The notes: generated from the letters alone by a model not told the origin. A DNA stretch of 64,000 nucleotides from an uncultured Sphingosinicella sp. (GCA_964438875.1 CAYTMM010000005.1:14968-78967), one strand, 5' to 3'; positions 12,518 through 48,908 are shown, counted from the stretch's first letter. Translations and numbers: made by a program.

Positions 12518-13209
12518 GGTCGCTCCTCCCCCTCCTGCTGCTCGGCGCCACTGTGCCGGCATTGGCGCAGATCGATCCGCGCCCTGGCGGCAGCGACCCA
12601 CGCATCCAAGTGATCGACTATCAAGACGACCAGGTGTTCCGCGTCCAGGCGGCACCGGGCTATCAGGTGACCCTGCAGCTCGGCCCCGACGAGCGGATCG
12701 AAAATGTCGCGGTCGGCGATGCCGGTGCCTGGCAGGTCGCCGCCAACGCTCGCGGCGATCTCCTGTTCGTCAAACCCTTGCGCGAAGGGGTGACCACCAA
12801 TCTCACCGTCGCCACGGACATCCGGCTTTACACGTTCGAGCTCGCCCCGCTTTACGACGGCGCGCCCAACATGGCCTACCGGATCCGGTTCAACTATCCC
12901 GCCGAGGCCGATGAGCGGCAAGAGCCCGAACAGGTCGCCGCGCTGGGTGATGGCCGCTACCGGCTGAGCGGCGCCCGTGCGCTGCGCCCCGCCGCGATCA
13001 GCGACGATGGCATGCGCACCTATATCGAATGGCCCGAAGACGCCGCATTGCCGGCGGTGTTCACGATCGACGCGCAGGGCCGTGAGGCTCTGGTCAACGG
13101 CAATATGCGTGGGCGGCTCTATGTGATCGATAGTGTGCCAGGCCGCCTGCTGTTCCGGATCGATCGCGGCGTCGCGCGCGCCGTGCGCATCACGCCGAGC
13201 GACTCCTGA
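12514..13209 (+). CDS. virB9: TrbG/VirB9 family protein
   Basis: Signal peptide, DPRIQVIDY, LFVKP, DDGMRTYIEWP and LPAVF motifs. Confidence 0.92.
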   Translation: MRSLLPLLLLGATVPALAQIDPRPGGSDPRIQVIDYQDDQVFRVQAAPGYQVTLQLGPDERIENVAVGDAGAWQVAANARGDLLFVKPLREGVTTNLTVATDIRLYTFELAPLYDGAPNMAYRIRFNYPAEADERQEPEQVAALGDGRYRLSGARALRPAAISDDGMRTYIEWPEDAALPAVFTIDAQGREALVNGNMRGRLYVIDSVPGRLLFRIDRGVARAVRITPSDS

Positions 13210-14324
13210 TGGCAGCGCGCGGCCAAGGCGGCGATCCGCGCCGCACGCTCCCCGAGATCGAGGAAGGCGATGTGCGTCCGGTGGTCGCCATGGGACGCGG
13301 CGGGGTGCCGACCTGGGCGCTGGTCGGGATCGCGGTGCTGATCGGGCTCATGCTGTTCGCTGTGCTGGATGCCCGGCGCCGTGCCGGGCAGGAGCCGGCC
13401 GAACCGGTCCGCGCCGATGCGTTCGCATTGCCGGCCCCGCCTCCACCATTGGTGCTTCCGCCACCGGCGGCGCCCATGATCGCACCGCCGGTAGTGGCGG
13501 AGGCGCCGGTTGCTGTGCCGCCGCCCGCCGCTGCGCCCGTGCCGGCGCCGCAAATGGTCTATGTGCCGCAGCCCGCGCCGATGTCGCAGCAGATGGAGGC
13601 GCCGCCGCCTCCGCCGCGGGTGTTGGCCGAGCCGGCCTTGGTGCTCGATATCAGCGGGACGCGGCGAAGTGCTGGCGCCCCGCCTGCTGAAGATGGCGGG
13701 GTGGTCAATGCCGCCCCGCCATCGACAGGATCATCGGTATCCGGAAGTCGCGCCCGTGCCGGCAGCCTCGCCAACCGCACCACCACCGTGCCGCAGGGCA
13801 CGCTGATCCCCGCCGTGCTGGAAAGCGCCCTGGACTCGACCCGGCCTGGGCTCGCGCGCGCCATCGTCTCGCGCGACGTGCGCGGATTCGACGGGACGCG
13901 CATCTTGATCCCGCGCGGCAGCCGCCTGATCGGTGAATATGCCTCCGAAGTGCAGCCCGGCCAGCGCCGCGCTCTGGTCAACTGGATCCGGCTGATCCGT
14001 CCCGACGGGGTGACGATCGAGATTGGTTCGCCGTCGGCCGATCCGGTCGGCCGCACCGGCATGCGTGCGCGGGTCAACAACCACTTCTTCGAGCGGTTCG
14101 CGGGCGCATTCCTGCAATCCGCCCTCAACCTGGGCGTGAACCTCGCCGCCTCGGAAGCCGGCAATGGCGCGGTGGTGATCCTGCCGGGCACACTCCAGAA
14201 CGGCGCGAGCCAGGCGATCCAGCCCCAGCAGATCACCCCGACGCTCTCGGTGCGGCAGGGCACCAGCATCAGCATCTTCGTCGCCCGCGATCTCGACTTT
14301 ACCGGCGCGGATGCGAGGCGGTGA
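13209..14324 (+). CDS. virB10: TrbI/VirB10 family protein
   Basis: TM plus Pro-rich linker; GTLIPAVLESALDS, LIPRGSRLIGEY, VNNHFFERF and IFVARDLDF motifs. Confidence 0.93.
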   Translation: MAARGQGGDPRRTLPEIEEGDVRPVVAMGRGGVPTWALVGIAVLIGLMLFAVLDARRRAGQEPAEPVRADAFALPAPPPPLVLPPPAAPMIAPPVVAEAPVAVPPPAAAPVPAPQMVYVPQPAPMSQQMEAPPPPPRVLAEPALVLDISGTRRSAGAPPAEDGGVVNAAPPSTGSSVSGSRARAGSLANRTTTVPQGTLIPAVLESALDSTRPGLARAIVSRDVRGFDGTRILIPRGSRLIGEYASEVQPGQRRALVNWIRLIRPDGVTIEIGSPSADPVGRTGMRARVNNHFFERFAGAFLQSALNLGVNLAASEAGNGAVVILPGTLQNGASQAIQPQQITPTLSVRQGTSISIFVARDLDFTGADARR

Positions 14325-15307
14325 GCGCGGCTGCCACGGCTCCGGTTTACCTCAGCGCCTATCTGGCGCCGCTGGGCGACCTGCTCGAACGTCCCGACAT
14401 CACCGACATCTATATCAACGCGCCGCGCGAGGTATGGATCGAGACCATCAAGGGCGAGGTCGAGCGGCTGGAGGTGCCGGCGCTGGATGCGGCGATGCTT
14501 AGCCGGCTGGCGCGCCAGATCGCGGCGATATCGCATCAGGGGATCAGCCGGGAACACCCGCTGCTGTCCGCGACCCTGCCGGACGGCGGGCGCGTGCAGA
14601 TCGTGATCCCGCCCGCCACGCGCGGACATCTGGCGCTGGCGATCCGCAAGCATATCGCGCCGGAGCTGTCACTGGAGGATTATGTGGCGGCGGGTGCGTT
14701 CGACGAGACCCGGCGCGGGGAGCTTGGCACCGACGATGAGGGCAAGCGGCAGATCGCCGCCTTGCTCGCCGCTGGTGACATGGCGGGCGCGATGCGGCTT
14801 GCCGTACGCCAGCGGCGCAACATCCTGGTGTCCGGGGGTACATCGACCGGCAAGACGACGTTCCTCAATGCGCTGCTGCGCGAGGTGCCGGCCGAGGTAC
14901 GGCTGATCCTGATCGAGGACACGCCGGAGCTGAAGGCGCCCCACGCCAATATGGTGGGGCTGCTGGCGGCGCGCTCGGCATTGGGCGAGGCGCAGGTGAG
15001 TGCGGACGATCTGGTGGCGGCAAGCCTGCGCATGCGACCCGACCGGATCATCCTGGGCGAGTTGCGCGGCCCCGAGGCGTTCGCGTTCCTGCGCGCGGTC
15101 AATACCGGCCACCCCGGCTCGATGACCACGGTCCATGCCGATAGCGCAAGCCGAGCGATCGAGCAGATCGTGTTGCTGGTGCTCCAGGCCGGCACCCAGC
15201 TCAGCCGGGACGATGTGCGTCACTATGTGCGCTCGACCATCGATCTCTACGTGCAGCTGACTCGCGAGGGTGGGCGGCGGCGGGTGGCGGAGGTGATCTG
15301 CCCGTGA
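14321..15307 (+). CDS. virB11: VirB11 traffic ATPase
   Basis: Walker A GGTSTGKTT, IEDTPEL, LRMRPDRIILGELRG and NTGHPGSMTTVHA motifs. Confidence 0.95.
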   Translation: MSAAATAPVYLSAYLAPLGDLLERPDITDIYINAPREVWIETIKGEVERLEVPALDAAMLSRLARQIAAISHQGISREHPLLSATLPDGGRVQIVIPPATRGHLALAIRKHIAPELSLEDYVAAGAFDETRRGELGTDDEGKRQIAALLAAGDMAGAMRLAVRQRRNILVSGGTSTGKTTFLNALLREVPAEVRLILIEDTPELKAPHANMVGLLAARSALGEAQVSADDLVAASLRMRPDRIILGELRGPEAFAFLRAVNTGHPGSMTTVHADSASRAIEQIVLLVLQAGTQLSRDDVRHYVRSTIDLYVQLTREGGRRRVAEVICP

Positions 15308-15678
15308 TGGGGGCTGCGCCGATGCTCGCCGATCCGGGCGGGTCCAGCAGCCTGGTCGCAGCTTTGACCTGGGTGCAGGGGACGTTGCTGGGCACGGTCG
15401 CGACATTGGTGGCGGTGATCGCCATTGCGTCGATCGGGCTGCTGATGCTCGCCGGGCGCGTGGATGTGCGGCACGGCGTGCGGATGGTGCTAGGATGCTT
15501 CATCCTGTTCGGGGCGGCCACGATCGCGGCCGGGATACAGGCGGGGTTTACGGTGGGGATAGGATCGTCGCGGCCGGTGATGGCTGAGGCACCCGAGGCA
15601 TCACCGCCACCGGCTCTGCCCGAGATGCCACCCGCCAATTACGATCCCTATGCCGGGGCATCGGTGCCGATACGGTGA
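15304..15678 (+). CDS. virB2: Second TrbC/VirB2 family pilin with Pro-rich C-terminal tail
   Basis: WVQGTLLGTVATLVAVIAIASIGLLMLAGR...LGCFILFGA, a paralogue of 7594-7914; tail PEASPPPALPEMPPANYDPYAGASVPIR. Confidence 0.8.
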   Translation: MMGAAPMLADPGGSSSLVAALTWVQGTLLGTVATLVAVIAIASIGLLMLAGRVDVRHGVRMVLGCFILFGAATIAAGIQAGFTVGIGSSRPVMAEAPEASPPPALPEMPPANYDPYAGASVPIR

Positions 15679-16127
15679 TTTGAAAAGCACGATAACAGGG
15701 CTGCAAGACGGGCGTATAGCGGATTTGCGCCCATAGCGGCCGTCTAGCGCCGGATCTGCCAATCGCGAGAGCTGACGTCCACCGGGCACACGCGATTGAC
15801 CGACATGCGCCCATCCCGGTCGCCACCATCGCCGACTCTGGCGTCCGCTTCGCGGTTCATGCTGGACCTTCAGGCCAGCCGACGGCTTCAACAACGGCAG
15901 ACATTTCAAACTGCAGGACCGTCAATCGAGATGAGTCCGAGCTCCAAGCTATGTTGCTTCTGAACTCGCCTTACCCCGCCGTTAATTAGTAGTACGGAAA
16001 CACCTGATCTCACTCTTGCCCGTCAATTGACACTTTGCATTGTCAAGGTACTTGTGGAAGCATGTTCTATCCGAGCTGGAGTGGGAGACTTCGGGCGTTC
16101 GGCAACGTGGGGACCGGAACATTGACT

Positions 16128-17768
16128 GTGAAGAAGCCTGCGAGCGTCGGCAGTGTGTCGGTGAGGCTCATTCGGGCCGATAAGACGGTCGACACCGCCA
16201 TTCGGTCCGAGAACAAATTTCATGAGGTGCCATCTGAATCCGGCCACCTGTTTGTGGGTCAAAGTCCAAGCAACCCGCCGCCATGGACGAGCTTCGTCAG
16301 GGAGGCGGCCGGCACGACCGCAGACGTCGAGCTGCAAAACAAGAGCTGCGGCGCCATCCTCTTCCTCACGGCCGAGCGAGCAGGACGACCCGACCGCATC
16401 TTTGCGTTCACTTTCGGTACGGGGCATCTGGCGCTAGATCCCGATGCGATTGAGCGCGGATTCGGCCTCAAGGTAACATTGAACAAGGTGGAGCGGTCCA
16501 AGCTGAGGACGCTGGATGTGGCGAGCCTCGATGCCACCGTCATCCAGCGGCGGACCCAGGCGAGTCGAGATATCGACATCGACGAGTTCGGGATGAACAA
16601 GCATCAGGATCTACTGCGTCTCGCGGCTGGCACGCCCGATGACACGGGCCTGGCGCGCACATTGAGCGGACGCGACTCCCTAACCTTGAACCGGCGCTAT
16701 TCTGCGGCTGAGCTTCAGGCGCTTTGCGAGCGGTTGCTGGCCCTCTACGAGGGCAAGGAATATCAGAAGCACTATAAGTTCATCGACAATGTTCGGCCTG
16801 TCCAGGATAGGCTGCTGCTCTCGGAGCTCGACGGCCTCGCATTTGCGGAAATCAACGCGCTCATCAGCGGCCAAACGTCCGACCTGCATCTGTCACTGCC
16901 GGAGATCCTTGATCCATCGCGCAGCCTAGAGGTCAGCTATTTTGGTGCCACGCTCAAGCCAGGCCGCAAGAGCGTCTATCCGGATATCGACATTGCCGAT
17001 TATGTCGAGGTGCTGAGGCTCGGCAAGTTTGCCGACCTCACGCTCGATGCATGGCGCGCCACTCACGAAATCCGTTTCAGCGAAGCCGGCGAGACGGACC
17101 GGGAAAAGCAGCACAGGATCCACAATTGCATCGTCTGGGAGGCGGTCCACAACGGCATCACCTATGTCGCTTTCGGCGGCGAGTGGTTTGCAATTGATAA
17201 GCTCTTCTACGAGGAGATCGAGGAGGATTTCCAACGGCTGATTACAGCCACGCCGGTGGTCGCCTCGACGGCGGCCAAAAATGAGCAGGAGCTGCTAGTA
17301 GAGCTCGACGCGAGGCCTGACCTCCTGCTGATGGACAAAACTAAGACCAATCCGAAGGGCGCGCCGCGGGCCAATATCGAATTTTGCGACTTTCTCGGCT
17401 TTGACCGTAAACTCATCCATCTCAAGGATGGCCATGCCTCCACTTCGATCAGTCACCTCTGGAGTCAGGGCGTGGTCGGTAGCGAGAGCTTCCTCCGCGA
17501 CGAAGGATTCAGGCGGCATCTACTCAAGCATGTCCGCTCCCGCCAGAGGGACGCCAAGAAGTCGGGCTTCGATAGACTGCTGCCGACGCCGGCCAAGCGT
17601 CCAACGACGCGGGATTTCACCGTCGCCTATGGCATCATGCGGACGCCACTGAAGCGGTCCGGCAAGCTCGACATTCCCTTCTTCAGCAAGGTTAGCCTGC
17701 GGGCGGCCGCGCAGCGACTCGAGGATCTGGGGTTCAACGTTGAAATCCAATTGATCAAGATGACGTGA
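16128..17768 (+). CDS. TIGR04141/DUF6119-like sporadically distributed protein with C-terminal PD-(D/E)xK-like region
   Basis: FAFTFGTGH...IERGFGLKVTLN N-terminal motif; IEFCDF...LIHLK...SISHLWSQG...PFFSKVSL C-terminal motif. Start uncertain (16035-16128). Confidence 0.75.
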   Translation: MKKPASVGSVSVRLIRADKTVDTAIRSENKFHEVPSESGHLFVGQSPSNPPPWTSFVREAAGTTADVELQNKSCGAILFLTAERAGRPDRIFAFTFGTGHLALDPDAIERGFGLKVTLNKVERSKLRTLDVASLDATVIQRRTQASRDIDIDEFGMNKHQDLLRLAAGTPDDTGLARTLSGRDSLTLNRRYSAAELQALCERLLALYEGKEYQKHYKFIDNVRPVQDRLLLSELDGLAFAEINALISGQTSDLHLSLPEILDPSRSLEVSYFGATLKPGRKSVYPDIDIADYVEVLRLGKFADLTLDAWRATHEIRFSEAGETDREKQHRIHNCIVWEAVHNGITYVAFGGEWFAIDKLFYEEIEEDFQRLITATPVVASTAAKNEQELLVELDARPDLLLMDKTKTNPKGAPRANIEFCDFLGFDRKLIHLKDGHASTSISHLWSQGVVGSESFLRDEGFRRHLLKHVRSRQRDAKKSGFDRLLPTPAKRPTTRDFTVAYGIMRTPLKRSGKLDIPFFSKVSLRAAAQRLEDLGFNVEIQLIKMT

Positions 17769-17899: not shown

Positions 17900-17914
17900 G
17901 AACAGACATAGAAC
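17900..17914 (+). promoter_or_regulatory. Alphaproteobacterial LexA (SOS) box
   Basis: GAAC-AGACATA-GAAC, a perfect GAAC-N7-GAAC, about 135 bp upstream of the 18049 gene. Confidence 0.7.
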
Positions 17915-18048
17915 AGGCATCTCACATCCCGGTCCATTTTCGCCGCCGATGATAACAAATCGTAACGATCCTATAGGTCTGGCCTTGGGTCATCGCTCTG
18001 CTCTACCTTTTCGGAAGCGGCAGCCGTTTCAACAGGGGGTGTGCAGCG

Positions 18049-18828
18049 ATGGACTCGCTCGGTGAATTGATTCCCGACAAATATGAACTGAACGCCCGGT
18101 TGCGGCCGGCGCTGCTCCTGCTGCTGCCGGCGATCGCGGTCGCAGCCGTCTGGATACCCGAACTTCGAACAATGGGCGGGGCGATCCTGACGCTCGCTGT
18201 CACCTGTGGCGTGACCTATTTTCTTTCCCAGGTCGCGCGCCGGCGTGGGCGCGCACTGGAAGACAGCTGGGGCGACGCGATCGGTCGGCGCCACTCCGCG
18301 CGCCTGCTTCGGCATGACGACGACACGATCCGCGCCAGCGTCAAGCAAAGGGTCGTTGACCTCGTCAGTGAGTTTGGTCCGGGCTTTCCCTCCCCGGCAG
18401 ACGAGGCCGCCGATTCCAATGCCGCGGAGGACCGGAGGATCGACGCGGTCGAATGGCTGCTCGAGGTGACGCGCGCTGACGCGCAGGCGTCGTTGCTGCT
18501 CGGCGAGAACATCGCCTACGGTTTTTCGCGCAATCTTCGCGGGCTGAAGCCGATCGGCTTGCCGGTGGCGATCATCGCGCTCGGCATTGATGCCTGGTTG
18601 CTATTCCAGACGGGCGCGGCTGGCGACAACCGCGCCGGCATTGCCGCCGGCTTTTTTTGCCTGATCTTCATTCTGGTCTGGCTGTTTCAGGTCACCCGCC
18701 GCCAGGTCGAGCAATATTCGCTCATCTATGCGCAGCGTCTCTTTGCCCAGGCCGACAATCCGGCGTTGCGCGCGCGTCTTGCCGAGGGGCGCGTTCCGCT
18801 GCCGAGCAAGAAACAGAAGGGCAAGTAG
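18049..18828 (+). CDS. Membrane protein of unknown family, about 4 hydrophobic segments (two N-terminal, two C-terminal)
   Basis: YELNARLRPALLLLLP, LLRHDD and LLGENIAYGFSRN motifs around a soluble middle domain. Confidence 0.75.
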   Translation: MDSLGELIPDKYELNARLRPALLLLLPAIAVAAVWIPELRTMGGAILTLAVTCGVTYFLSQVARRRGRALEDSWGDAIGRRHSARLLRHDDDTIRASVKQRVVDLVSEFGPGFPSPADEAADSNAAEDRRIDAVEWLLEVTRADAQASLLLGENIAYGFSRNLRGLKPIGLPVAIIALGIDAWLLFQTGAAGDNRAGIAAGFFCLIFILVWLFQVTRRQVEQYSLIYAQRLFAQADNPALRARLAEGRVPLPSKKQKGK

Positions 18829-18871
18829 GCGACTTCGCCGACCCCGTGCGGAATGCCCTGGCCGGGCGAGT

Positions 18872-19687
18872 TCACCAGGTTCGGTCGGTCATTACCTTCC
18901 AGCCGTACGGATCGCGGCTGAACTCGATCATCCCGTCACGCCGGGTGGTCAGCACGCGCCGGGTGCGGCCATCAATGCTGATGCCCCGCGCATGGGTGCC
19001 GTAGGTCCGCACCGTCTCCTGGGTGGCGTACTGGATGCCGGCGTCAGAGATCACGATGAGTTGCGGCGACAGGCCGGTCAGCCGGAACAGGGGCTCGAAA
19101 TAGCCGCTCTCGCGGCCATGGTGGGAGGCCATGAACACCTGCACCCGTCCGATCGCGGCGCGAAAGGCGCGGTCCTGGAGGAGTCGAAGCCATCCCGCCT
19201 TTTCGATGTCGCCGGGAAAGCAAATCGAGAAGTCATTCCATTCGAGGATGACGACCAGACTGAGGTTGTTCTCATCCCGGAAGTGGCGCGGAAAGTCGTT
19301 CCAGAAGCAATGGATGCTGAGGCCGTCGAACCAGGGCGCCGCTGCGCTGCCGCCGAGGCCTTGAAGCAAGCGGCTGAGCGCGAATATCCCCGGGCCGCAA
19401 TTATCCTGCCCCTTAAGGTTCAGCAGAGCGGCACCCGAGATCGTCGGGTTTGTGTAGACCCGCGCGACACTGGCGGCGGCGAGGACATTGGCAAGGTCGC
19501 TCGCATGATCTTCGTCCTCATTGGTGACGACGAGCGCGTCGAGATGTCCGATCCCGCGGTAACGCAGCATTTGCGAGGGACGCCAGCCTGTACTGCTGTT
19601 GTGGCCACAGTCGATCAGCATATGCTCGTTCGCATGTTCGACGAGGGCGCATTGCCCATGCTCGACATCGAAGATCTTGATCCTCAT
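18872..19687 (-). CDS. ComEC/Rec2-like metallo-beta-lactamase-fold hydrolase, variant motif
   Basis: FDVEHGQCA, LIDCG, TNEDEDH (in place of HxHxDH), FPGDIE and ASHHG motifs. Confidence 0.85.
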   Translation of the reverse strand: MRIKIFDVEHGQCALVEHANEHMLIDCGHNSSTGWRPSQMLRYRGIGHLDALVVTNEDEDHASDLANVLAAASVARVYTNPTISGAALLNLKGQDNCGPGIFALSRLLQGLGGSAAAPWFDGLSIHCFWNDFPRHFRDENNLSLVVILEWNDFSICFPGDIEKAGWLRLLQDRAFRAAIGRVQVFMASHHGRESGYFEPLFRLTGLSPQLIVISDAGIQYATQETVRTYGTHARGISIDGRTRRVLTTRRDGMIEFSRDPYGWKVMTDRTW

Positions 19688-19781
19688 GGTGCAGTTAATC
19701 TGGGGTCTGGCCCCGACGCTGAAAAGTGCGTCGCGGATGTTCAGTCTTGATCTCCCGGACGATGGCCGCGGATATCGCGCG

Positions 19782-20882
19782 ATGGCCGACAACAAGAACC
19801 AGCATTATGTGGCGCGCTGCCATTTGCGGCGGTTCAGCAAGGAGGGCGAAGGCCGCGCGATCAATCTGTTCAATCTCGACCGCCAGCGGGCGATTCCGGA
19901 CGCCCCTCTCAAGAACCAGTGTTCGGGCGATTATTTCTACGGTGACGACAAGCGCCTCGACGACGCTATCAGATTTGTCGAGGACAGCTACGGGTCGATG
20001 ATGACCGACCTGGCGGCCCCAGGCAGGATCATCACTCCGAAAGACAGGGTGATCCTGCAACGCTTCCTTCTGCTCCAGCATTTGCGGACCGAGGCGGCCT
20101 CGGAGCGGGCCGCAAAGAGGCTGTTCGCTATGCATGACCTGCCCGGAGGGGATGAGCAGCTCCCCCCGCTCAAGGAGGCGGTCCGCGGTGCGGTTATCTC
20201 GGCAATGCGCGTCTATGCCGAGACAATGCGCATCGTCGATGATCTCAAGCTTTGCGTGGTGCGCAACCGCAGCGCACTCGCCTTCGTGACATCCGACAAT
20301 CCCGCCATCTTGACCAACCGGCTCAATCTCCAACGCCCAAACATGAAAGGCCGCGGTTTTGGCGTGAGGCATGCCGGAACGCTGCTACTGATGCCGTTGT
20401 CGCCCTGGCTCTACTGCATTCTCTATGATGGCGACGTCTATACGATCGGCCATTCCGGCGGGTGGATCGACATTGAGGATGTTGCCGACATCGCTGCGCT
20501 CAACGACCATCAGTTTCTCGGCTGTGCCGCCAATATCTACTTCAGGGACTGGACCGACCGGACCGGCGTTGCCTCCGCCGCCCGCCAGGCCTGTTCACGG
20601 CGGCCGGAGCAGCGTCATCGCGCAATCCATGCGGTGCTCGACCAAGAAACCGAATGGGGCAAGCGTTATGCTGTCATCGAGCGGGATGCGATCAGGCCCG
20701 GCGACGAGGTGTTGATCCACATCATCGCCAATCAGCCGGTCCCGCTCGGCTGGCCGTCCTTCCTGCGCTACCGGGCCGATCGCAGGGCTTATTCCAACAA
20801 TAGCGGCACCGGACTTGTGCGGCGCTGGTGCCTCGACCAGGGATTTGTGTCGGGAGCGGGTTATCGACGGATAAGGCCGTGA
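19782..20882 (+). CDS. DUF4238 domain protein
   Basis: N-terminal NQHYVARCHLRRF, and FVTSDNP...LMPLSP motifs. Confidence 0.82.
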   Translation: MADNKNQHYVARCHLRRFSKEGEGRAINLFNLDRQRAIPDAPLKNQCSGDYFYGDDKRLDDAIRFVEDSYGSMMTDLAAPGRIITPKDRVILQRFLLLQHLRTEAASERAAKRLFAMHDLPGGDEQLPPLKEAVRGAVISAMRVYAETMRIVDDLKLCVVRNRSALAFVTSDNPAILTNRLNLQRPNMKGRGFGVRHAGTLLLMPLSPWLYCILYDGDVYTIGHSGGWIDIEDVADIAALNDHQFLGCAANIYFRDWTDRTGVASAARQACSRRPEQRHRAIHAVLDQETEWGKRYAVIERDAIRPGDEVLIHIIANQPVPLGWPSFLRYRADRRAYSNNSGTGLVRRWCLDQGFVSGAGYRRIRP

Positions 20883-20922
20883 ACTGATCGCCCTGCGCAA
20901 CGCCAGTGTCGTGACGTCCCAG

Positions 20923-23208
20923 TCAGGCTTCCGCCGCCGGATCGTCTTCCATCGTTCCCTTGAGCACCGCTTCGGCGACCAGCATCGAATAGCCGGCCGG
21001 CGTGTGGATCAGCAGCAGCGCCGGCACGAACTGGCGCAGCGCCAGGATCGCGCCCGCAATCGCGTCGGTCGACGAGGGACCGCTCGGGGCGAGGTGACTA
21101 TGCCAGGTGCCGACGACCTGCAGCGCGCCGCCGGTTTCCACGGCGACCTTGCGGGCCGCAGCCCGCAGCCCATTGCGGCCGAGGACGAACTCCTCGGCGC
21201 TGCGCGTGCTGTCCGGTGGCGCCGGCAGCAGATCGACGATCTGGAAACAATTTCCGATGTGCGAGAAGCGGCCGACCAGCACGCCACCGGTCTCGACGCC
21301 TGGGTATTTGGCAATGTCCTCTTCGATGGCAGCATCGACCCTGGGATGAAGACGAACGCCCGGTGTCTGTGGACCGAGGGGGGACACAACGGTCCAGGGT
21401 GCCTCCTCGACCAGCGACCAGGACAGGCCACCCAAGTCATCGGTCACGCCGATCCGGAGCTGTCCGGTCTGCGGCAGATTGTCGCACACCCAGTCGACAA
21501 TCGGGCGCGCCAGTGCGGCGCTGAGCATCGAGAGCTCACTGTCAGGCATGGGAAAGGTCGCGGCCGAACAGCCCTGGCCGATCACGATCGCTTCGGCCTC
21601 GGCGCCAGAGGCTAGTTTCGCGAGGTCGGAAACCTCGGCCAGGCGCCGATAAGCTTCAGCGGCGAGGTCGCTCAAATTGGGATTGGCGTTCGCCCCCTCC
21701 AGCGCGAGATAGCCTAGCCGTCCCGCGCCCATCAGACAGGCCTCGACCGCGCGCGGGCGACCGGCCCAGTCCACATGGGCGAGCGCTTCGCGGGTGACGA
21801 TGCTCGCGGTGGTGTCGACGATCAGCGCCGTGCCAGGCGGGGCGAGTCTGCTTCGTCCCTCGTCGTCGGCGAGGAGGGTTATGGCATCGGCATTGACCGC
21901 GGCCGCCGTCTGGGCGAGCTTTTCGACCTGACCCGCGCTGACATCTGCCTTGGCGCGAAGGAACATGCGGTCGGCAGTGCCGAGCGGAAGCGCGGCATGC
22001 CGCGCATAATTGTGTGCATCGAGATTGCTGCGATCGACGAGGACCGCTGGCGCGCGGCCGGCACGCGCCGCGTGCAGCACGATTTTCGAGCCGACGCTGC
22101 CGCAGCCGATCATCGTCCACGGCCGCGTCGGCAGGCTGGACGTGTCCCGCGATGTTCGCCGGAGCAGGGTCGGATTGATCGTCTCACGATGCGCGGCCAG
22201 GCGGACTTTCGTTTCCGGGTCGGCGAAATCCTGGCCGGGCGCGGCCTCGATCAGATAGGGACAGATCTCGATCGGGCTGTCGGTGCCGATCAGATTATAG
22301 GGTCGTCGGGCGAGAAGGATGACCGCGATCGGCACAGGATCGGCGGGAGGGTCGGCGGCCAGCGCATCGCGCAAGGACGTCAGCGCGGCGCTCAGTTCCG
22401 TGCTGCAACCGTAGAGCGCAGCACGATCCAGGAGGTCGCCGACATTCTCCACCGTCTCCGGGAGATAGAGCGATGCCCCGGGCGCGCCGGTCGATCCGGC
22501 CCATACCAACAGACCAAGGCCGGCTCCGCTCGGTGTCCCTTCATCTTTGTCACGGCGTAGCACCTTGCCAAGATAAGGCCCGATTTCGACCGATTCGCTG
22601 CCGAGGAAGAGCTTGTAGAGGTCTGACTTTTCGTAGTGGAGATAGGTCGCGACTACGAACGCGGTTCCGCCTCCAGGCGTCACCATCGCCTGCGCACGGG
22701 GGGCGTTGATCACGACGATGTCGTCGATCGAATCGCGCCGCACCGGCTCCCAGCCATGGGCCGGGTCATTGAGTTCAAGCGCCGCAGCGCGCTCCAGCCA
22801 GAGAACGAGCTGCTCGATGAGGCCAATGAAACCACGCGCCTGGATCACCTCGCGCGGACTGCCCAATACGAGGCAGGGGCGAACCGGCTTGCTCTCCTTG
22901 TCCGGCTGGATGTGCGGATGGTACCGCGGGAAATCCGAGCGCAGCGCGATGTAGGGCGTGATCAGCGGGAAATTGTCGCTGAACGCGAAATTCACCGTCT
23001 CGAACTTGCGCACACCGAACGGGCTCTCACCGGCTGCACGCCACGCGGCCGGCAGCTCGGTGCGGATGGTGACCTCGGCGAAGGTCAAATCCTCCTGCCG
23101 CTTCCTAATCGTAACGGCCGTAACGGAGGGATGTGCCTGGGCCTGGCGCAAAGCGCGCGAAACCGCCACCGGCATGCCCGGTGGCGGCGGCGTCTCCTCG
23201 TCGCTCAC
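20923..23208 (-). CDS. Prokaryotic E2-E1(ThiF)-JAB fusion protein (6A-MBL-type)
   Basis: E2: FP...P...LRSDFP..HPHI...PCL. E1: GCGSVG, DRSNLDAHNYARH, GQGC. JAB: ETGGVLVG...GTWHSH...PSSTD. GTGA overlap with the upstream MBL gene. Confidence 0.9.
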   Translation of the reverse strand: MSDEETPPPPGMPVAVSRALRQAQAHPSVTAVTIRKRQEDLTFAEVTIRTELPAAWRAAGESPFGVRKFETVNFAFSDNFPLITPYIALRSDFPRYHPHIQPDKESKPVRPCLVLGSPREVIQARGFIGLIEQLVLWLERAAALELNDPAHGWEPVRRDSIDDIVVINAPRAQAMVTPGGGTAFVVATYLHYEKSDLYKLFLGSESVEIGPYLGKVLRRDKDEGTPSGAGLGLLVWAGSTGAPGASLYLPETVENVGDLLDRAALYGCSTELSAALTSLRDALAADPPADPVPIAVILLARRPYNLIGTDSPIEICPYLIEAAPGQDFADPETKVRLAAHRETINPTLLRRTSRDTSSLPTRPWTMIGCGSVGSKIVLHAARAGRAPAVLVDRSNLDAHNYARHAALPLGTADRMFLRAKADVSAGQVEKLAQTAAAVNADAITLLADDEGRSRLAPPGTALIVDTTASIVTREALAHVDWAGRPRAVEACLMGAGRLGYLALEGANANPNLSDLAAEAYRRLAEVSDLAKLASGAEAEAIVIGQGCSAATFPMPDSELSMLSAALARPIVDWVCDNLPQTGQLRIGVTDDLGGLSWSLVEEAPWTVVSPLGPQTPGVRLHPRVDAAIEEDIAKYPGVETGGVLVGRFSHIGNCFQIVDLLPAPPDSTRSAEEFVLGRNGLRAAARKVAVETGGALQVVGTWHSHLAPSGPSSTDAIAGAILALRQFVPALLLIHTPAGYSMLVAEAVLKGTMEDDPAAEA

Positions 23209-24347
23209 CCGTGCGCCAGCGCTTCGGTGCCGATCCCGGTGCTGGCGGCCGCAGCGGCGGCCAGCGGGGTGCGCACGAACTTCGTGCCCTTGCTGCCGAT
23301 CTCGAGGGTCAAAGGCTGATCGTCATCGCCATCGGCTACGCAGCGAAACTCGCCGCCGACCTCCTCGACGATCTCTTCATATTCGCGCTTCGCGCGAATG
23401 CAGGGCGGGTCATTGTCGTCATCGTCGATTGCGCAGGAGCTGGCGACGACGATCGCGCCGGAGCGCGCCTGCGACAGTGCGCTGCGCGCGTCGGACGACA
23501 CCTCGGCATCCTCGCCTTTCTCCGACCAGCTGTCCCAGGACAGGCTGTGCCAGGAGCAGTGATGAGGCGCGATCAGCACATCATATTCGAGATTGCCTGG
23601 CTCGTCCTCATGCGCGGCCCAGAGCCGCTCCCAGATCGCAACTTCGGCGTCGCCGCCGAATAGGTAGCGCGCCGCATCGTCATTGCCGTCGGCAGCGAGC
23701 GTCAGGTGGACGATCACGCTCGAGTTGTTCTTGCTGAGAACCTCTTCCTCTTCCTCGTTCGCCGGCGGCAGGGGCGCCAGCAGGAGCGCCGAGAAGCTAT
23801 CGTCCTCAATCCCGTCGATCGTCGAGAAGCGTTCGCCCGTGCAGACCAGAATCCCGTCGAGATCGTCGGTCTTGTCGTCGATATCCTCGCCCAGCACGAG
23901 GATCCTGTCGCCGTCGTCGAGCGAGCCCTGCTCACGGTAGAGCGCGACGCGCCGGCGCGCCTCACAGCCCCAGGCATGGGCATCGTTACACAATTTGTTT
24001 CCCGCAGACCGACGACGGAAGATCATCGGTGATGACCACATCTCGCGGATGATGATCTTGTCGTCATCCTCTTCCCAGTCATCGAGCGGACCGAGATGAA
24101 AATGGGTCTCGAGGCCCCGAATATGATCGGCATCGGGATGGGTCAGCAAGAACGCATCGACGAAGAGCCTTCCTTCCGCATCGCGCTCCAGCAGATCGCG
24201 GAGCTGCGCGGCGACGTCCGGCGTGTCATCGTCCTCATCGTCGGCGGCACATCGGATGTTGATGTCGAAGAGAATTCGCCGGCCGCTTTCAAGTTCGACC
24301 AGAGCCATATCGCCATTGTCGACCCGAAAATGATACGTCTTCACCAT
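23205..24347 (-). CDS. Acidic metallo-beta-lactamase-fold hydrolase, partner of the E2-E1-JAB fusion
   Basis: FRVDNGDM, LFDIN, THPDADH, FGGDAE and APHHCSW motifs; flexible tail ending in Gly (…GTEALAHG). Confidence 0.88.
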   Translation of the reverse strand: MVKTYHFRVDNGDMALVELESGRRILFDINIRCAADDEDDDTPDVAAQLRDLLERDAEGRLFVDAFLLTHPDADHIRGLETHFHLGPLDDWEEDDDKIIIREMWSSPMIFRRRSAGNKLCNDAHAWGCEARRRVALYREQGSLDDGDRILVLGEDIDDKTDDLDGILVCTGERFSTIDGIEDDSFSALLLAPLPPANEEEEEVLSKNNSSVIVHLTLAADGNDDAARYLFGGDAEVAIWERLWAAHEDEPGNLEYDVLIAPHHCSWHSLSWDSWSEKGEDAEVSSDARSALSQARSGAIVVASSCAIDDDDNDPPCIRAKREYEEIVEEVGGEFRCVADGDDDQPLTLEIGSKGTKFVRTPLAAAAAASTGIGTEALAHG

Positions 24348-24679
24348 AGCAGTCGCCTCGTCTGGACGGATGGTAAGTAGGAACCAAGAAAGACGTTACA
24401 AGACCGAAACAACTCATAGGGCGCGCTTTTACGGATGCTTGTGCGGGTGGTGCGCTTCCGCAAAAAAGACGGGTGGTTACCGAGCCCGAAGTTGTGTTCA
24501 TACCAACCATCGAAGCAACCATGTAGCTTCCTGAATTGAAGGCCATATCGGCCACTGCATTGCCCCGACGGTGGCTGTTCGCGGTCGCTAGTCCGTCGAC
24601 GGGACCGGTAGTGCGCAGAAAAGGTCGATTTGTCGGTGAGATCGCAGCATTCTCGCCGATTCGTACCATGCGAATATGA

Positions 24680-24694
24680 GAACAAACATAGAAC
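24680..24694. promoter_or_regulatory. Alphaproteobacterial LexA (SOS) box
   Basis: GAAC-AAACATA-GAAC, 14/15 identical to the box at 17900; about 330 bp upstream of the MBL start on the minus strand. Confidence 0.7.
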
Positions 24695-24862
24695 GAAAAG
24701 TCAACCGGCAATCGTTTCCTGACGACCTTAGCCTTACCAGGAGGACTCGGCCCGTGGCGGCTTTCGAGCATCCGCAGGTATCTCTTGAGCGGCCGACATG
24801 GGTGCATCCCGGAAAACAGCGCGAGCATCGCGGGATGTCCGGATTTACTTGATCTCCACTCC

Positions 24863-24889: not shown

Positions 24890-27800
24890 TCAGAATCCGA
24901 TCCGGACCCCTGCATTGGCTCTCAGGTTGGTGCTGTCGGCCAAATCCGAAAAGGGGCTATCGATCGCGGCCTCTCCGTAGAAGGTGACGCCATTTGACAA
25001 GCGAACGCTGGCACCGATGCCCAGTTCGCCCGACACCCGGTGGTCGGCGCGCACGATCGGCGTTCCCGCCACTTCGGTCCGGCTGCCGCCCAGCCATTCG
25101 ACGTTGACGTTGGCGATTGCATAGATGTGAGTTGCGATATCCCCCGAAGCGACGCGCCGGTCGACGGAGAGTCCCGTTCGCGAGCGCAGGCTGTCGCCGT
25201 CGGCGATCGAGATGTTGGCTCCCGAAGGATCAACGAAGGCGTCGAAGCGAACATTGCCGTAGAGGAGCTGGGCTTGCGGCGTCAGACTCCAGACTGAACC
25301 CAGGGGGATAATGTGGCCGACTTCAAGGCTGAACGCTTCGCCGGAGCCATCATTGCTGCGCACGAGTTCACCCAAAATGTCGGATCGCAGATTGCTGTCA
25401 TACCAGCTGAACTGGGCCTGCGCGTCGGCATAGAAGCCCCGAATGTCCCGCCATGTCAGCGAGAGGCCGAAGCCATAGCCGTTGGTGTCCATCCGTCCGT
25501 CTCCGAACACGGATTTCGTGCGGGCCCGAGCCTCGCCATAATGGCCAGAAATGCCGGCGACCAACTGATTGCCGCCGGGCGCGCCAACCAATGCACGATC
25601 GACGCCGATCTGGATGCGCCAGGCATCGATCCTTTGATCTGCTGCGCTGGTGGAACGTCTTGGTTCCGCGTTTTGGCGGAGACCTTCGAGGCGGCCCCAG
25701 ATGTCATTCCGGCCCGGTGTCAAGCTGCGTCCGGCGACGCGCTGCTGCAGCGTCGGCAAACCGTTCAGCGATTGCAGCACCGCGCCATAGCCCTCATAGA
25801 CCGGAACGCCCGGCTGATAGAGCGGCACAGGGGGCGTGGGCGCTGCCGGATCAATCAAAGCGGAGCGCAAATACCAGTCTCCATCGGACGGATCGGTCAC
25901 GCCATTCTGGACAAGCCGATAGGCATAGGCCCCGGCGATGATCGCTTGCTCTCCCTCGAACAGATAATCGCCGTTCAGGACGAAAATACCGTCGGAAGCC
26001 CCCGCAACTTCGATGATGCGGATGCCCTCCACAGTCTGGGCGCCGATCCCGTTTCGATTGACCACGGTGACCCTGCTGGTGCCGGAAGTGGCGCCGCCGA
26101 TGACGAGCCGGTCGGTCGTCGAACTGTCCCCGCCCAATATCGTCTCGATCTCGATGGTGCCGCCATTGCCGACATAGTCGCCCGTCACCGTCAGCGTGCC
26201 GAAGCCCGCATTTCCGGGAGCCACGACGCCGGCATTCGCCGCACTGCCCAGCGTGCCATCGCCTTCCAGGCGTCCGCTGGCGCTGACGATGACATTGCTG
26301 CCCAGTGTACCCGTCAGTGCGAGGGTGCCCGCTTCCACCGTCACCGGACCTGCGAAGGCGACATTGTCGCCGGACAATTGCAGGACGCCGCCGCCACTTT
26401 TGCCAAGCGGCCCGTTGCCGGAGACGAGTCCGTCGAACGAAAATGTCGTTCCCTCGGCAGTTTCGATCGCGCCCCCCGCCAGCACGCGCAAATCGCGCGA
26501 CGACGAGAAGCTGGCAGTCGTGCGCAGCACTCCGCCGTCAAGGTCGACGTCGCCGCCCGCATCGCCCAGATTGGCATCCGCCGTAATCTGGAGCGTGCCG
26601 GCGCCAATGACCGTTCCCCCTGTGTAGGTGTTGGCGCCGCTGAGAATGGTCACGCCGGGTCCGTCCTGACGAACCGCGCCGCTGCCGGAGATCACGCCCG
26701 CGAACGCGAAGCTGTCGGACCGATTGAATGCGAGTACGCCATCGTTTGCGACGTTGCCCGTGATCGCGCCGACGGTTCCGCCATCGCCGATCTGGAGGCT
26801 GCCGCCCGTTATCGTTGTCCCGCCTGCATAGGTGTTCGCGCCCGTAAGAACGAGCGTGCCGCTGCCGGCCTGACGCAGCCCACCCGTTCCTGAGACCGCC
26901 CCGTCAAAGGCGATATCGTCGGAGCGTTCGAATACCAGTGTGCCATTGTTCGAAACATCGCCGACGATCGATCCTGTTGTGCCGCCATTGCCGATTTGCA
27001 AAACGCCTGCAGCAATCGTCGTTCCCCCGGCATAGCTGCCGGTTCCGGTAAGGATCAGTGTGCCGGCTCCGAATTTCTCGAGAGAACCAGCCCCCGAGAG
27101 ACTACCGCCGAGGTTCAGCGAGGTTGCGGCATCCGTATCGACTCTTCCCGCAGAGAGCAGATTGACCGCGCGCGCCGAGGCAAAGCTCGCAGTGGAGTTC
27201 AGTGTGCCGCCATCGAATGTGAGGCTTCCCGCCGTATCGCCCAGACTGGCATCATCGGATATACGCAGCGTTCCTGCGCCGATGATCGTCCCGCCGGTAT
27301 AGCTGTTGGCGCCGGTCAGGATCAACGTGCCGAGATCGGTCTTGTTCAAAGCCGCGGCACCGGTCACTTCGGCATCGATCGTGGCGGTAACGCCCGCGCC
27401 GTTCGCCGTGCCGTCGCCAACGCGGATATCGGCGACCGCGCCGACCAGCGTGAGGGCATCTCCATTCAGCACATAACCATCGGTCGCGATCTGGAGCCCC
27501 GATGCCGTCACCGCGCCATTATTATTGGCGATATCGACCGTCCCGGCCGTGCCCTGGAATATCGCGAAACTGCCATTGGCATAGTCCGCGTTCACTTCTC
27601 CGTTGATCTCGGTCCAATGGTTCTCGCCACCGCCGAGCCGCCAGATGCCGTTCCCACCCGTGACATTCCTGTCATTGGCGGTGCCTGACGGCCCGTCCCA
27701 GACGTTGAGCGTGAGCCCGGCGGTGTTGACGAGGTTGATCTGCTGGGCGATCGACGTCTGGACGAACAGATCGCTGCCCGCCGGCGCAGCGCCGATCGAC

Positions 27801-30079: not shown

Positions 30080-30343
30080 GATCTGATCTCGCCACATTAT
30101 GATTCAGATTAAAATTGACGATTGTGATTAATAATGATTTAAATTCTGTGCATCGCTGTTGTCGGATGAGTCTTTTTGAAGCAGTTCTTTCATGCATGTT
30201 TGTGCAATGTTTGACTTCGTGGCGTCCGCAGAACGTATAGGGCCGCTCATGGGTATGGAATTGCCGAGCCAATCCTCGCAAACTGAGCGCCGCCCACACG
30301 CGCTTAAAACGCTGAATGGCAGAATTCGTCACCAGCCGGCTCA

Positions 30344-48862: not shown

Positions 48863-48908
48863 TTGACGCCCCGTGCGGGCGCGATTACCACAAGAACAAA
48901 TCTGGAAC
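48863..48908 (+). promoter_or_regulatory. uvrA promoter with LexA box
   Basis: -35 TTGACG at 48863; GAAC-AAATCTG-GAAC at 48894-48908, 10 bp before the ATG. Confidence 0.85.

What the first reader, a model, noticed from the sequence alone, without database searches (positions are those of the whole stretch)
18049..24347. Extended 6A-MBL-type locus: E2-E1-JAB + MBL joined by DUF4238, a second MBL and a membrane protein
Seen: five genes in alternating orientation; the fusion keeps candidate catalytic residues (E2 Cys in PCL, E1 GxGxxG and GQGC, JAB HSH..S..D). No ubiquitin-like or CD-NTase gene is nearby. Established: the MBL + E2-E1-JAB pair matches the described 6A-MBL anti-phage system. Inference: the three extra genes may be extra effectors or sensors of a larger system, or independent defence genes.
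Basis: partly seen in the sequence, partly recalled or inferred. Interest (0 to 1): 0.6.

Follow-up and report, generated by a model that had tools for sequence, protein, structure and literature searches.

The report
6A-MBL defence cassette with nested DUF4238
The five genes are real: two form the known 6A-MBL anti-phage system, the membrane protein and second nuclease-like enzyme are its frequent but uncatalogued partners, and the DUF4238 gene looks like a separate known defence gene lodged in the middle.

Summary

MBL1 and the E2-E1-JAB fusion pass NCBI's equivalog models for 6A-MBL (422 bits against a cut-off of 220; 566 against 320).

The reading is partly supported.
- **Membrane protein:** it is a regular partner. 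A family member lies within 4 kb of cap2_3 in 46 of 50 non-redundant related metagenome loci. This genome has only one copy.
- **Second MBL:** it is of the PADLOC PDC-M48B type and resembles the ComEC nuclease domain. It accompanies 13 of those 50 loci. It also occurs with a membrane partner but without cap2_3.
- **DUF4238:** it accompanies 1 of 50 loci, the closest relative. Elsewhere it stands alone, and a DUF4238 protein is a published single-gene defence.

The whole 6.4-kb block is colinear at 79% DNA identity with one metagenome contig. All five genes are under purifying selection there.

No ubiquitin-like gene is needed. MBL1 carries a conserved tail ending in His-Gly.

Near-identical LexA-type boxes precede MBL1 and the membrane gene.

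This scan has reported the 6A-MBL, membrane-protein and second-MBL association before on other DNA. The title of a 2019 paper, and two papers that cite it, indicate the membrane-protein link was already described. Interest is modest.

The parts
24680..24694 (-). LexA-box-like direct repeat (GTTC-N7-GTTC) just downstream of a TTGACT hexamer (24699-24704), 333 bp upstream of MBL1. Probable SOS-controlled promoter of the MBL1/cap2_3 operon.
   Evidence: It is one of only 3 perfect matches in the 64-kb window. It lies in a roughly 30-nt island conserved with L051, where the box sits 350 bp upstream of MBL1. Perfect boxes lie within 400 bp upstream of MBL1 in 7 other loci, L051 included. The third window copy lies 11 bp before uvrA.
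23205..24347 (-). MBL1, the 6A-MBL system's MBL-fold enzyme (380 aa), with an Ala-rich C-terminal tail ending in His-Gly. Predicted nuclease-like effector and the conjugated 'modifier'.
   Evidence: NF058524 scores 422 bits against a cut-off of 220. It carries the H-P-D-x-D-H motif. All 54 distinct homologue tails carry x-H-G, mostly at the very end and otherwise a few residues before it. dN/dS is 0.074.
20923..23208 (-). cap2_3, the E2-E1-JAB triple fusion (761 aa). Predicted to adenylate, carry and ligate the MBL1 C-terminus, and to trim or reverse the linkage.
   Evidence: NF058523 scores 566 bits against a cut-off of 320. Pfam finds Prok-E2_A, ThiF and Prok-JAB. C112, the GxGxxGS motif, C547, E639, HxH, S712 and D715 are invariant. 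The best solved relative of its profile is CBASS Cap2, 7to3, E 1.4e-20. Its start overlaps the MBL1 stop.
19782..20882 (+). DUF4238 protein (366 aa). Most likely an independent single-gene anti-phage protein nested in the cassette; mechanism unknown.
   Evidence: PF14022 scores 114.6 bits against a cut-off of 27. More than 600 homologues of about 366 aa exist. It is present in 1 of 50 related 6A-MBL loci. It sits alone in a Novosphingobium plasmid defence island. A single DUF4238 protein protects E. coli from T7 (PMC9122126). The AF2 model has pLDDT 91 and no PDB match.
18872..19687 (-). MBL2, a second MBL-fold protein (271 aa) resembling the ComEC nuclease domain, of PADLOC PDC-M48B type, without a Gly tail. 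Predicted second nuclease that uses the same membrane partner.
   Evidence: PDLC04674 matches at 8.6e-85. The best solved relatives are ComEC beta-lactamase-like domains, 9ic4 at 3.4e-8. The motif is N-x-D-x-D-H, shared with a subfamily. Homologues lie beside 6A-MBL in 13 of 50 loci and beside a 2+2-TM gene without cap2_3 in 4 genomes.
18049..18828 (+). TM259, a four-helix inner-membrane protein (259 aa) with a cytoplasmic helical domain between TM2 and TM3. It belongs to the conserved but uncatalogued partner family of 6A-MBL and PDC-M48B enzymes (possibly Csx27-like).
   Evidence: Hydropathy shows a 2+2 TM pattern. The AF2 model has pLDDT 92.9 and is all-helical. The family is present in 46 of 50 related loci, in 36 of them directly after cap2_3. 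It is the only family member in this genome. No member passes any Pfam, NCBIfam or PADLOC model.
17900..17914 (-). Second LexA-box-like repeat, identical at 14 of 15 positions to the one before MBL1, 135 bp upstream of TM259.
   Evidence: It is not conserved in L051.

Best explanation
The block 18047-24419 is a 6.4-kb defence cassette carried as cargo next to a VirB-type conjugation system. It holds two things.

(1) An extended 6A-MBL system of four genes. MBL1 is a nuclease-like metallo-hydrolase with a flexible tail ending in His-Gly. The E2-E1-JAB protein is inferred to work as CBASS Cap2/Cap3 does on the CD-NTase tail. Its E1 domain would adenylate the terminal Gly. The tail would pass as a thioester through Cys547 and Cys112 and be ligated to a target. 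The JAB domain would trim precursors or reverse the ligation.

The four-helix membrane protein TM259 is the system's usual third component. I infer that it docks the MBL enzyme(s) at the inner membrane, or forms a channel with them, so that DNA is attacked at the membrane. MBL2 is a second, tail-less nuclease resembling the ComEC nuclease domain. It shares that single membrane partner.

LexA-type boxes before MBL1 and before TM259 suggest both units are induced by DNA damage.

(2) A DUF4238 gene that acts on its own as a single-gene anti-phage protein. It landed at the position where the nearest relatives keep their membrane-protein gene.

Shown here: gene identities, motifs, tail conservation, neighbourhood frequencies, block conservation and purifying selection. 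Inferred: conjugation chemistry, nuclease activity, membrane docking, SOS control and anti-phage function.
For: Both 6A-MBL components pass NCBIfam equivalog cut-offs, and all catalytic residues are invariant. The profile of cap2_3 matches solved CBASS Cap2 best.

The MBL1 tail carries x-H-G in 54 of 54 distinct homologue tails, mostly at the extreme C-terminus and otherwise a few residues before it. MBL2-type proteins have no such tail.

The TM family lies within 4 kb in 46 of 50 non-redundant loci, and directly downstream on the same strand in 36. In a 401-genome sample, TM is found in 9 genomes, in 7 of them beside cap2_3. The genome holds only one TM family gene. Nearly all loci with two MBLs also have one TM gene.

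MBL2-type genes occur in 13 of 50 loci and on a Sphingobium conjugative plasmid in the order MBL1, cap2_3, TM, MBL2.

DUF4238 occurs in 1 of 50 loci, on other plasmids without any MBL, and is published as a single-gene defence.

The block is colinear with L051 at 79% nt identity, with different flanks. dN/dS is 0.07-0.13 and dS 0.8-1.3 for all five genes.

LexA-type boxes are documented. 6A-MBL is cited as a phage defence.
Against: TM259 and MBL2 are not co-transcribed with MBL1 and cap2_3 here. TM259 is on the opposite strand, convergent with MBL2, and DUF4238 separates them.

The nearest cap2_3 relatives (63% identity) carry a different TM cluster (III) directly after cap2_3, whereas TM259 is cluster I. 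So the TM and MBL2 pair may have arrived as a separate module. MBL2 plus TM pairs do work, or at least persist, without cap2_3 in 4 genomes.

MBL2 has Asn in place of the first motif His and may not be a normal hydrolase.

The LexA-like box before TM259 is not kept in L051. Three perfect boxes in 64 kb is not above chance by count alone.

No activity, interaction or expression data could be obtained. The two key papers (van den Berg 2024; Makarova 2019) are not held, so I cannot say whether the tested P. aeruginosa system included a membrane gene.
Confidence: 0.55

Rival explanations
1. There are three independent systems that merely share an island: a two-gene 6A-MBL that lost its own membrane gene, a free-standing PDC-M48-like pair (MBL2 plus TM259), and DUF4238. 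TM259 serves only MBL2.
For: MBL2-type plus 2+2-TM pairs occur without cap2_3 in G060, G148, G219 and G239. TM259 belongs to TM cluster I, while the nearest cap2_3 relatives carry cluster III. The convergent arrangement of TM and MBL2 recurs in L065 and L109. The transcription units are separate. Three of 12 genome loci and 4 of 50 metagenome loci have 6A-MBL without a detectable TM gene.
Against: Ninety-two percent of related 6A-MBL loci keep a TM gene, and loci with two MBLs almost always have a single TM gene. MBL2-type genes are far commoner beside 6A-MBL (26%) than in genomes at large (8 of 401). Near-identical LexA-like boxes precede MBL1 and TM259. The block has been kept whole over dS of about 1.
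Confidence: 0.3
2. All five genes, DUF4238 included, form one obligate system, with DUF4238 recruited as a sensor or regulator of the 6A-MBL machinery.
For: The five genes keep the same order and orientation in the window and in L051 at 79% nt identity, with similar dS and strong purifying selection. DUF4238 shares a 94-bp divergent control region with MBL2.
Against: DUF4238 is absent from 49 of 50 related metagenome loci and from all 12 genome loci. No plasmid holds both in one place. It stands in an unrelated defence island elsewhere and protects as a single gene (PMC9122126). The one co-occurrence is in a close relative and counts as a single evolutionary event.
Confidence: 0.07
3. The membrane protein is the killing effector, a pore or channel that depolarises the cell in abortive infection. 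The MBL proteins act upstream as sensors or activators and do not degrade DNA.
For: Four-helix membrane proteins are common abortive-infection effectors. The related type VI-B accessory Csx28 forms a pore (bioRxiv 2021.11.02.466367). Two partner-family members weakly match the Csx27 model. MBL2 has an altered metal motif.
Against: Both MBL families keep most metal-binding motifs (D-x-D-H, and H-H-G in the MBL2 type). They are closest to the ComEC nuclease domain. The AF2 model of TM259 gives no match to any solved pore or channel.
Confidence: 0.2

Closest known systems
6A-MBL anti-phage system (operon type 6a of Iyer, Burroughs & Aravind 2006, PMC1779556; named and phage-tested by van den Berg et al. 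2024, Cell Host Microbe 32:1427, not held here; NCBIfam NF058523 and NF058524)
   Same: It has an MBL-fold gene directly upstream of, and overlapping, an E2-E1-JAB triple fusion. Both pass the curated equivalog cut-offs, and there is no separate ubiquitin-like gene.
   Different: Iyer et al. describe it as 'usually two genes', and NCBIfam models only two proteins. Here, and in about 90% of related loci, a four-helix membrane protein goes with it. In about a quarter a second MBL goes with it too. In this locus those two genes are displaced and one is inverted, with DUF4238 in between.
Type II CBASS Cap2 (E2-E1) / Cap3 (JAB) acting on the CD-NTase C-terminus (structures 7to3, 7tqd)
   Same: Cap2 is the best solved relative of the cap2_3 profile (E 1.4e-20). 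The logic is the same: the enzyme's own C-terminal tail, ending in Gly, is the thing conjugated (PMC11601596).
   Different: No CD-NTase is present in the genome. E2-E1 and JAB are fused in one chain. The cargo is an MBL hydrolase and not a signalling cyclase.
PADLOC phage-defence candidate PDC-M48 (components A and B)
   Same: MBL2 matches PDC-M48B strongly (PDLC04674, 8.6e-85). Every strong PDC-M48B-type gene I examined has an adjacent 2+2-TM gene.
   Different: The PDC-M48A model PDLC04672 finds nothing in this genome or in seven others that carry the B component. Only one of 58 partner proteins weakly matches another A model (PDLC04670, E 0.0058). PDC-M48 is an untested candidate system. 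No paper in the library mentions it.
Csx27 family of four-helix membrane proteins (Makarova, Gao, Zhang & Koonin 2019, FEMS Microbiol Lett 366:fnz088; not held, known here from its title and from citing papers)
   Same: The topology is four-helix, and so is the association with ComEC-type competence enzymes and ubiquitin-system multidomain proteins (title; summaries). Two partner proteins match the Csx27 model (1.2e-5 and 3.6e-3).
   Different: TM259 itself gives no Csx27 match at E up to 10. The link is only transitive: hhalign gives 87% probability over 77 columns. No Cas13b or CRISPR context is present.
Single-gene DUF4238 defence from the P2 hotspot (Rousset et al. 2022, PMC9122126)
   Same: It is one protein made of the DUF4238 domain (PF14022, 114.6 bits), found in varied defence-island contexts.
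   Different: This is an alphaproteobacterial homologue, not tested. Here it is nested inside another system. The mechanism is unknown in both cases.
ComEC/Rec2 beta-lactamase-like nuclease domain
   Same: It provides the best solved relatives of MBL2 (9ic4, 30bt) and weak TIGR00361 matches for MBL2-type proteins.
   Different: MBL2 is a stand-alone soluble protein with a separate small membrane partner, not a domain of a large channel protein. The first motif His is Asn in MBL2.

Membership tests
6A-MBL anti-phage system | E2-E1-JAB triple-fusion protein matching NF058523 above its curated cut-off | tested here: met
   566.1 bits against a cut-off of 320, covering model positions 3-665 of 665. 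Pfam finds E2_A, ThiF and JAB domains.
6A-MBL anti-phage system | Specialised MBL-fold protein matching NF058524 above its cut-off | tested here: met
   422.4 bits against a cut-off of 220, covering model positions 1-346 of 346.
6A-MBL anti-phage system | The two genes are adjacent in one operon | tested here: met
   Same strand, with the MBL1 stop overlapping the cap2_3 start at 23205-23208. The order is the same in all 12 genome loci and in the metagenome loci.
6A-MBL anti-phage system | Intact E2 Cys, E1 nucleotide loop and Cys, and JAB metal site | tested here: met
   C112, G368/G370/G373/S374, C547, E639, H703, H705, S712 and D715 are invariant in 11 homologues.
6A-MBL anti-phage system | Protection against phage | not testable with these tools
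   Known only from citations of van den Berg et al. 2024.
Type II CBASS | CD-NTase (SMODS) signalling enzyme | tested here: not met
   PF18144 has no match at E <= 0.01 in the 95%-complete genome.
PADLOC PDC-M48 | Component B (MBL-fold) | tested here: met
   PDLC04674 matches at 8.6e-85 over 258 of 270 model positions.
PADLOC PDC-M48 | Component A adjacent to B | tested here: inconclusive
   PDLC04672 has no match in the own genome. TM259 has no PADLOC match. One of 58 partner-family proteins matches PDLC04670 at E 0.0058. The other A models could not be tested one by one.
Csx27 family | Small protein with four transmembrane helices | tested here: met
   Hydropathy segments fall in a 2+2 pattern. 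The AF2 model has pLDDT 92.9.
Csx27 family | Sequence match to a Csx27 profile | tested here: inconclusive
   TM259 gives no match at E up to 10. Two other 6A-MBL/PDC-M48B partners match at 1.2e-5 and 3.6e-3. hhalign of TM259's cluster against theirs gives 87% probability, E 4e-6, over 77 columns.
Single-gene DUF4238 defence | Protein consisting of the DUF4238 domain | tested here: met
   PF14022 scores 114.6 bits against a cut-off of 27, covering model positions 1-279 of 281.
Single-gene DUF4238 defence | No conserved partner gene | tested here: met
   It is absent from 49 of 50 6A-MBL loci. It has different neighbours on the Novosphingobium plasmid.
Single-gene DUF4238 defence | Protection against phage | not testable with these tools
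   Shown for an E. coli P2-hotspot homologue only (PMC9122126).

The most novel reading that the evidence does not exclude
The conserved membrane protein is the missing target of the pathway. cap2_3 would ligate the His-Gly tail of MBL1 onto the cytoplasmic domain of the four-helix partner. This would tether an SOS-induced nuclease covalently and reversibly to the inner membrane, where phage or conjugative DNA enters. The tail-less MBL2 would be a constitutively docked second nuclease. On this reading 6A-MBL is at least a three-component system, and two-gene annotations and constructs miss a required part.
Probability: 0.15. Interest if true: 0.65.

Novelty: new variant of a known kind. Interest (0 to 1): 0.35.

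Why it matters
NCBIfam annotates 6A-MBL as a two-gene system. PADLOC has no model of it, and none of its models matches the membrane protein here. In the clade sampled here, about nine loci in ten carry a conserved membrane protein that has no Pfam or PADLOC model and, for the copy tested, no NCBIfam model. About one in four carries a second nuclease resembling the ComEC nuclease domain.

If the membrane protein is required, cloning and mechanistic work on two-gene constructs could mislead. The unknown conjugation target might be encoded next door. The locus also gives a clean natural test set: four linked genes plus a nested independent gene. It further hints that a subset of these systems is under LexA control.

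None of this changes the class of the system. The membrane-protein link appears to have been published in 2019 and has been seen repeatedly in this scan.

Tried and rejected
- **PDC-M48A:** I searched model PDLC04672 in the own genome and in seven genomes carrying PDC-M48B. It gave no match, and the controls were silent at the stricter threshold, so this is uninformative.
- **Family models for TM259:** Pfam, NCBIfam and PADLOC gave nothing above cut-off. Pfam and PADLOC were also run on all 58 members and gave nothing above cut-off. The ESM Atlas returned only unnamed clusters.
- **Fold searches:** for TM259 the best Foldseek E was 0.07, and the best VIA Z of 7.8 was to designed helical bundles and GPCR-like folds, which is within noise for helical proteins. 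For DUF4238 the best Z was 2.7.
- **Block boundaries:** no terminal direct or inverted repeats mark the block ends.
- **Promoters:** the sigma-70 consensus scan found none.
- **Scan yield:** the genome-contig scan with the single cap2_3 protein gave only 3 loci. Alignment A3 was too diverse for a metagenome scan, so I used A4.
- **Solved structures:** single-sequence PDB searches with cap2_3 and MBL1 found nothing.
- **Papers not held:** van den Berg 2024 and Makarova 2019 are not held.
- **Rejected idea:** I first treated the sharp blastn boundaries at 18047 and 24419 as evidence of a mobile cassette end. They coincide with gene ends at 79% identity and may only reflect faster intergenic divergence.

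Full report
**What is there.** The region holds five intact genes.
- TM259: 18049-18828 (+), 259 aa.
- MBL2: 18872-19687 (-), 271 aa from the Met where homology begins.
- DUF4238: 19782-20882 (+), 366 aa.
- E2-E1-JAB fusion ('cap2_3'): 20923-23208 (-), 761 aa.
- MBL1: 23205-24347 (-), 380 aa, whose stop overlaps the cap2_3 start.

Pfam finds Prok-E2_A, ThiF and Prok-JAB in the fusion, DUF4238 in the third gene and Lactamase_B in MBL2. NCBIfam equivalog models for the '6A-MBL system cap2_3 protein' (566 bits, cut-off 320) and the '6A-MBL system MBL-fold protein' (422 bits, cut-off 220) are both passed. They are Cys112 in P-C-L, the GxGxxGS loop at 368-374, Cys547 in G-Q-G-C, Glu639, His703-x-His705, Ser712 and Asp715. 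The two-gene core is a member of 6A-MBL. That system corresponds to row 6a of Iyer et al. 2006 and is cited as a phage defence.

**Why no ubiquitin-like gene is needed.** MBL1 ends in an Ala-rich linker followed by a tail ending in His-Gly. All 54 distinct homologue tails that I collected carry x-H-G. It lies at the extreme C-terminus in most and a few residues before it in the rest. This is the pattern expected of a protein whose own C-terminus is adenylated and conjugated, with a JAB peptidase to expose or release it. Type II CBASS Cap2/Cap3 works this way on the CD-NTase tail (PMC11601596). The cap2_3 profile matches solved Cap2 best (7to3, E 1.4e-20). No CD-NTase is present in the genome. 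MBL2-type proteins lack such a tail.

**The membrane protein.** In 9 of the 12 genome loci that I fetched, a 205-290-aa protein with two N-terminal and two C-terminal hydrophobic helices lies just downstream of cap2_3 on the same strand. In 8 it follows cap2_3 directly.

In one evenly drawn sample of 401 genomes of the phylum, cap2_3 passes its cut-off in 10. A profile of the membrane family hits 9. Seven of those hits lie beside cap2_3. One lies beside a ComEC-like MBL without cap2_3, and one is weak and probably spurious.

A metagenome scan seeded with an alignment of cap2_3 gave 80 loci, which form 61 clusters at 90% identity. Fifty of these have at least 1 kb downstream of cap2_3. Of the 50, 48 have MBL1. 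A member of the membrane family lies within 4 kb in 46, and directly downstream in 36.

The own genome has exactly one member. The family has no Pfam or PADLOC model, and TM259, the only member tested, matches no NCBIfam model. Its AF2 model is confident (pLDDT 92.9) and all-helical. A roughly 100-residue helical domain sits between TM2 and TM3, and no solved structure matches it credibly. Conserved motifs include D-x-Y...A-R-x-x-P-A at the N-terminus and E-N-x-x-Y-G-F-R-R-N just before TM3.

**The second MBL.** MBL2 matches PADLOC's candidate-system component PDC-M48B (8.6e-85). Its best solved relatives are the beta-lactamase-like domains of ComEC. PDC-M48B-type genes lie beside 6A-MBL in 3 of 12 genome loci and in 13 of 50 metagenome loci. 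On a Sphingobium baderi conjugative plasmid the order is MBL1, cap2_3, TM, MBL2, next to virB11 and the coupling protein.

In the 401-genome sample, strong PDC-M48B-type hits occur in 8 genomes. Four lie beside 6A-MBL. The other four have no cap2_3, and each has an adjacent 2+2-TM gene. So 'MBL plus four-helix membrane protein' is the recurring unit, and cap2_3 looks like an added regulatory layer for the tailed MBL1 type. Nearly all loci with two MBLs have a single membrane gene, which argues that it is shared. The window's MBL2 subfamily has Asn in place of the first His of the H-P-D-x-D-H motif. What this means for activity is unknown.

**DUF4238.** It is absent from all 12 genome loci and from 49 of 50 metagenome loci. 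No plasmid record matches both it and 6A-MBL in one place. On a Novosphingobium plasmid it sits among toxin-antitoxin, restriction and HEPN genes with no MBL nearby. A single DUF4238 protein from the P2 hotspot protects E. coli from T7 (PMC9122126). I therefore read it as an independent defence gene. Its AF2 model is confident (pLDDT 91) yet has no structural match in the PDB (best Z 2.7).

**The one exception, and what it shows.** Locus L051 comes from a 2.48-Mb metagenome contig, and its cap2_3 is 83% identical. It has the same five genes in the same order and orientation. The window's 18047-24419 aligns with it as one colinear block of 6.4 kb at 79% nt identity, while the flanks differ. In L051 the block abuts a tRNA-Gly gene. 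In the window it lies between a VirB-type conjugation cluster with a DUF6119 gene on one side and an autotransporter on the other. All five genes show dN/dS of 0.07-0.13 with similar dS of 0.8-1.3. The cassette was therefore assembled before the two lineages split, and every gene has stayed functional. This is one evolutionary event. It does not show that DUF4238 is functionally wired in.

**How the arrangement arose (inference).** The next-nearest cap2_3 relatives (63-64% identical: L002, L004, L052, L053) carry a membrane gene of a different sequence cluster (III) directly after cap2_3. In the window, DUF4238 occupies that spot, and TM259 belongs to cluster I. A convergent pair of TM and MBL2 also occurs in L065 and L109. 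The simplest history is that the original membrane gene was replaced by a segment carrying DUF4238 and an MBL2/TM pair. This is the main support for the rival view that MBL2 plus TM259 is a separate module of PDC-M48 type.

**Regulation (partly followed).** The alphaproteobacterial LexA-box form GTTC-N7-GTTC occurs perfectly only three times in the window. That count alone is not above chance (1.66 expected). All three sites are in promoter regions, however. One lies 11 bp before uvrA, one 333 bp before MBL1 just after a TTGACT hexamer, and one 135 bp before TM259. The last two are identical at 14 of 15 positions. L051 keeps a box at the same distance before MBL1, inside a conserved 30-nt island. 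Six further loci have perfect boxes within 400 bp upstream of MBL1, against a background of 0.049 per kb. L051 has no box before its membrane gene. DNA-damage induction of at least the MBL1/cap2_3 operon is plausible.

**Relation to what is known.** Four known entities are involved.
- 6A-MBL: membership met.
- PDC-M48: the B component is met; the A component is inconclusive.
- The single-gene DUF4238 defence: met by domain and by lack of a conserved partner.
- The Csx27 family.

The title of Makarova et al. 2019 (in the reference list seen) links Csx27-family membrane proteins to natural competence and the ubiquitin network. Two citing papers say the same. From memory, its abstract describes operons with competence components and ubiquitin-system multidomain proteins. 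I could not read it.

Here, two partner proteins match the Csx27 model (1.2e-5 and 3.6e-3). TM259 does not. The profile-profile link between its cluster and theirs is suggestive only (87% probability over 77 columns). Earlier agents of this scan reported the same membrane-protein and second-MBL associations on other genomes. My counts are independent of theirs and agree with them.

**Verdict.** The locus is a four-gene extended 6A-MBL system: tailed MBL, E2-E1-JAB, a shared four-helix membrane partner and a second nuclease resembling the ComEC nuclease domain. An independent DUF4238 gene is nested inside it, and the whole is carried as cargo of a conjugative element. It is a new variant of a known kind. 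The useful point is that current two-gene definitions of 6A-MBL leave out a partner present in about nine of ten related loci.

**Limits.**
- The 80 metagenome loci were seeded from the window's own clade.
- Kin are not independent.
- There are no expression or activity data.

Noticed in passing
window 17900-17914, 24680-24694, 48894-48908; L051:6495-6509: Perfect GTTC-N7-GTTC (LexA-box form) occurs only three times in the window: before TM259, before MBL1 (identical at 14 of 15 positions to the first) and 11 bp before uvrA. The MBL1 box is kept in L051 within a conserved island. Perfect boxes also lie within 400 bp upstream of MBL1 in L030, L056, L065, L074, L119 and L128.
   Followed up: partly
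window 19782-20882: The AF2 model of the DUF4238 protein is confident (pLDDT 91, pTM 0.89) but matches nothing in the PDB (Foldseek E > 0.1; best VIA Z 2.7). The fold of this published defence protein appears to have no solved relative.
   Followed up: partly
window 16035-17768: A DUF6119/TIGR04141 'sporadically distributed' protein (577 aa; 432 bits) lies directly upstream of the cassette but outside the block shared with L051.
   Followed up: no
window 9000-15700; L131 (NZ_CP128179.1): A VirB-type type IV secretion cluster (VirB4, VirB8-VirB11, VirB2) lies just upstream. On a Sphingobium baderi conjugative plasmid a four-gene 6A-MBL locus also sits beside virB11 and the coupling protein. These systems seem to ride as cargo next to the transfer genes of sphingomonad conjugative elements.
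   Followed up: partly
L051:13448-13522: In the closest relative the five-gene block ends about 290 bp from a tRNA-Gly(GCC) gene, a typical island integration site. The flanks otherwise differ from the window's.
   Followed up: partly
window 18872-19687; L030, L051, L109, L125: One subfamily of PDC-M48B-type MBL proteins has Asn in place of the first His of the H-P-D-x-D-H metal motif (T-N-x-D-x-D-H). The later D-H and H-H-G motifs are kept.
   Followed up: partly
window 24347-24440; L051:6760-6860: Short blocks in the long leader before MBL1, for example a 13-nt C-T-T-G-T-A-A-C-G-T-C-T-T stretch about 45 nt before the start codon, are conserved between the window and L051 although the rest of the leader has diverged. 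They could be a second promoter or a leader RNA element.
   Followed up: no
L087, L089, L091, L098: A few 6A-MBL loci have a PDC-M48B-type gene 0.8-1.8 kb after cap2_3 but no detectable member of the membrane family. The ORF in the gap was not examined and might be another partner family.
   Followed up: no
window 24890-30097: A 1735-aa autotransporter (nine PATR repeats, autochaperone and beta-barrel domains) lies immediately beyond the MBL1 promoter region, on the same strand.
   Followed up: no
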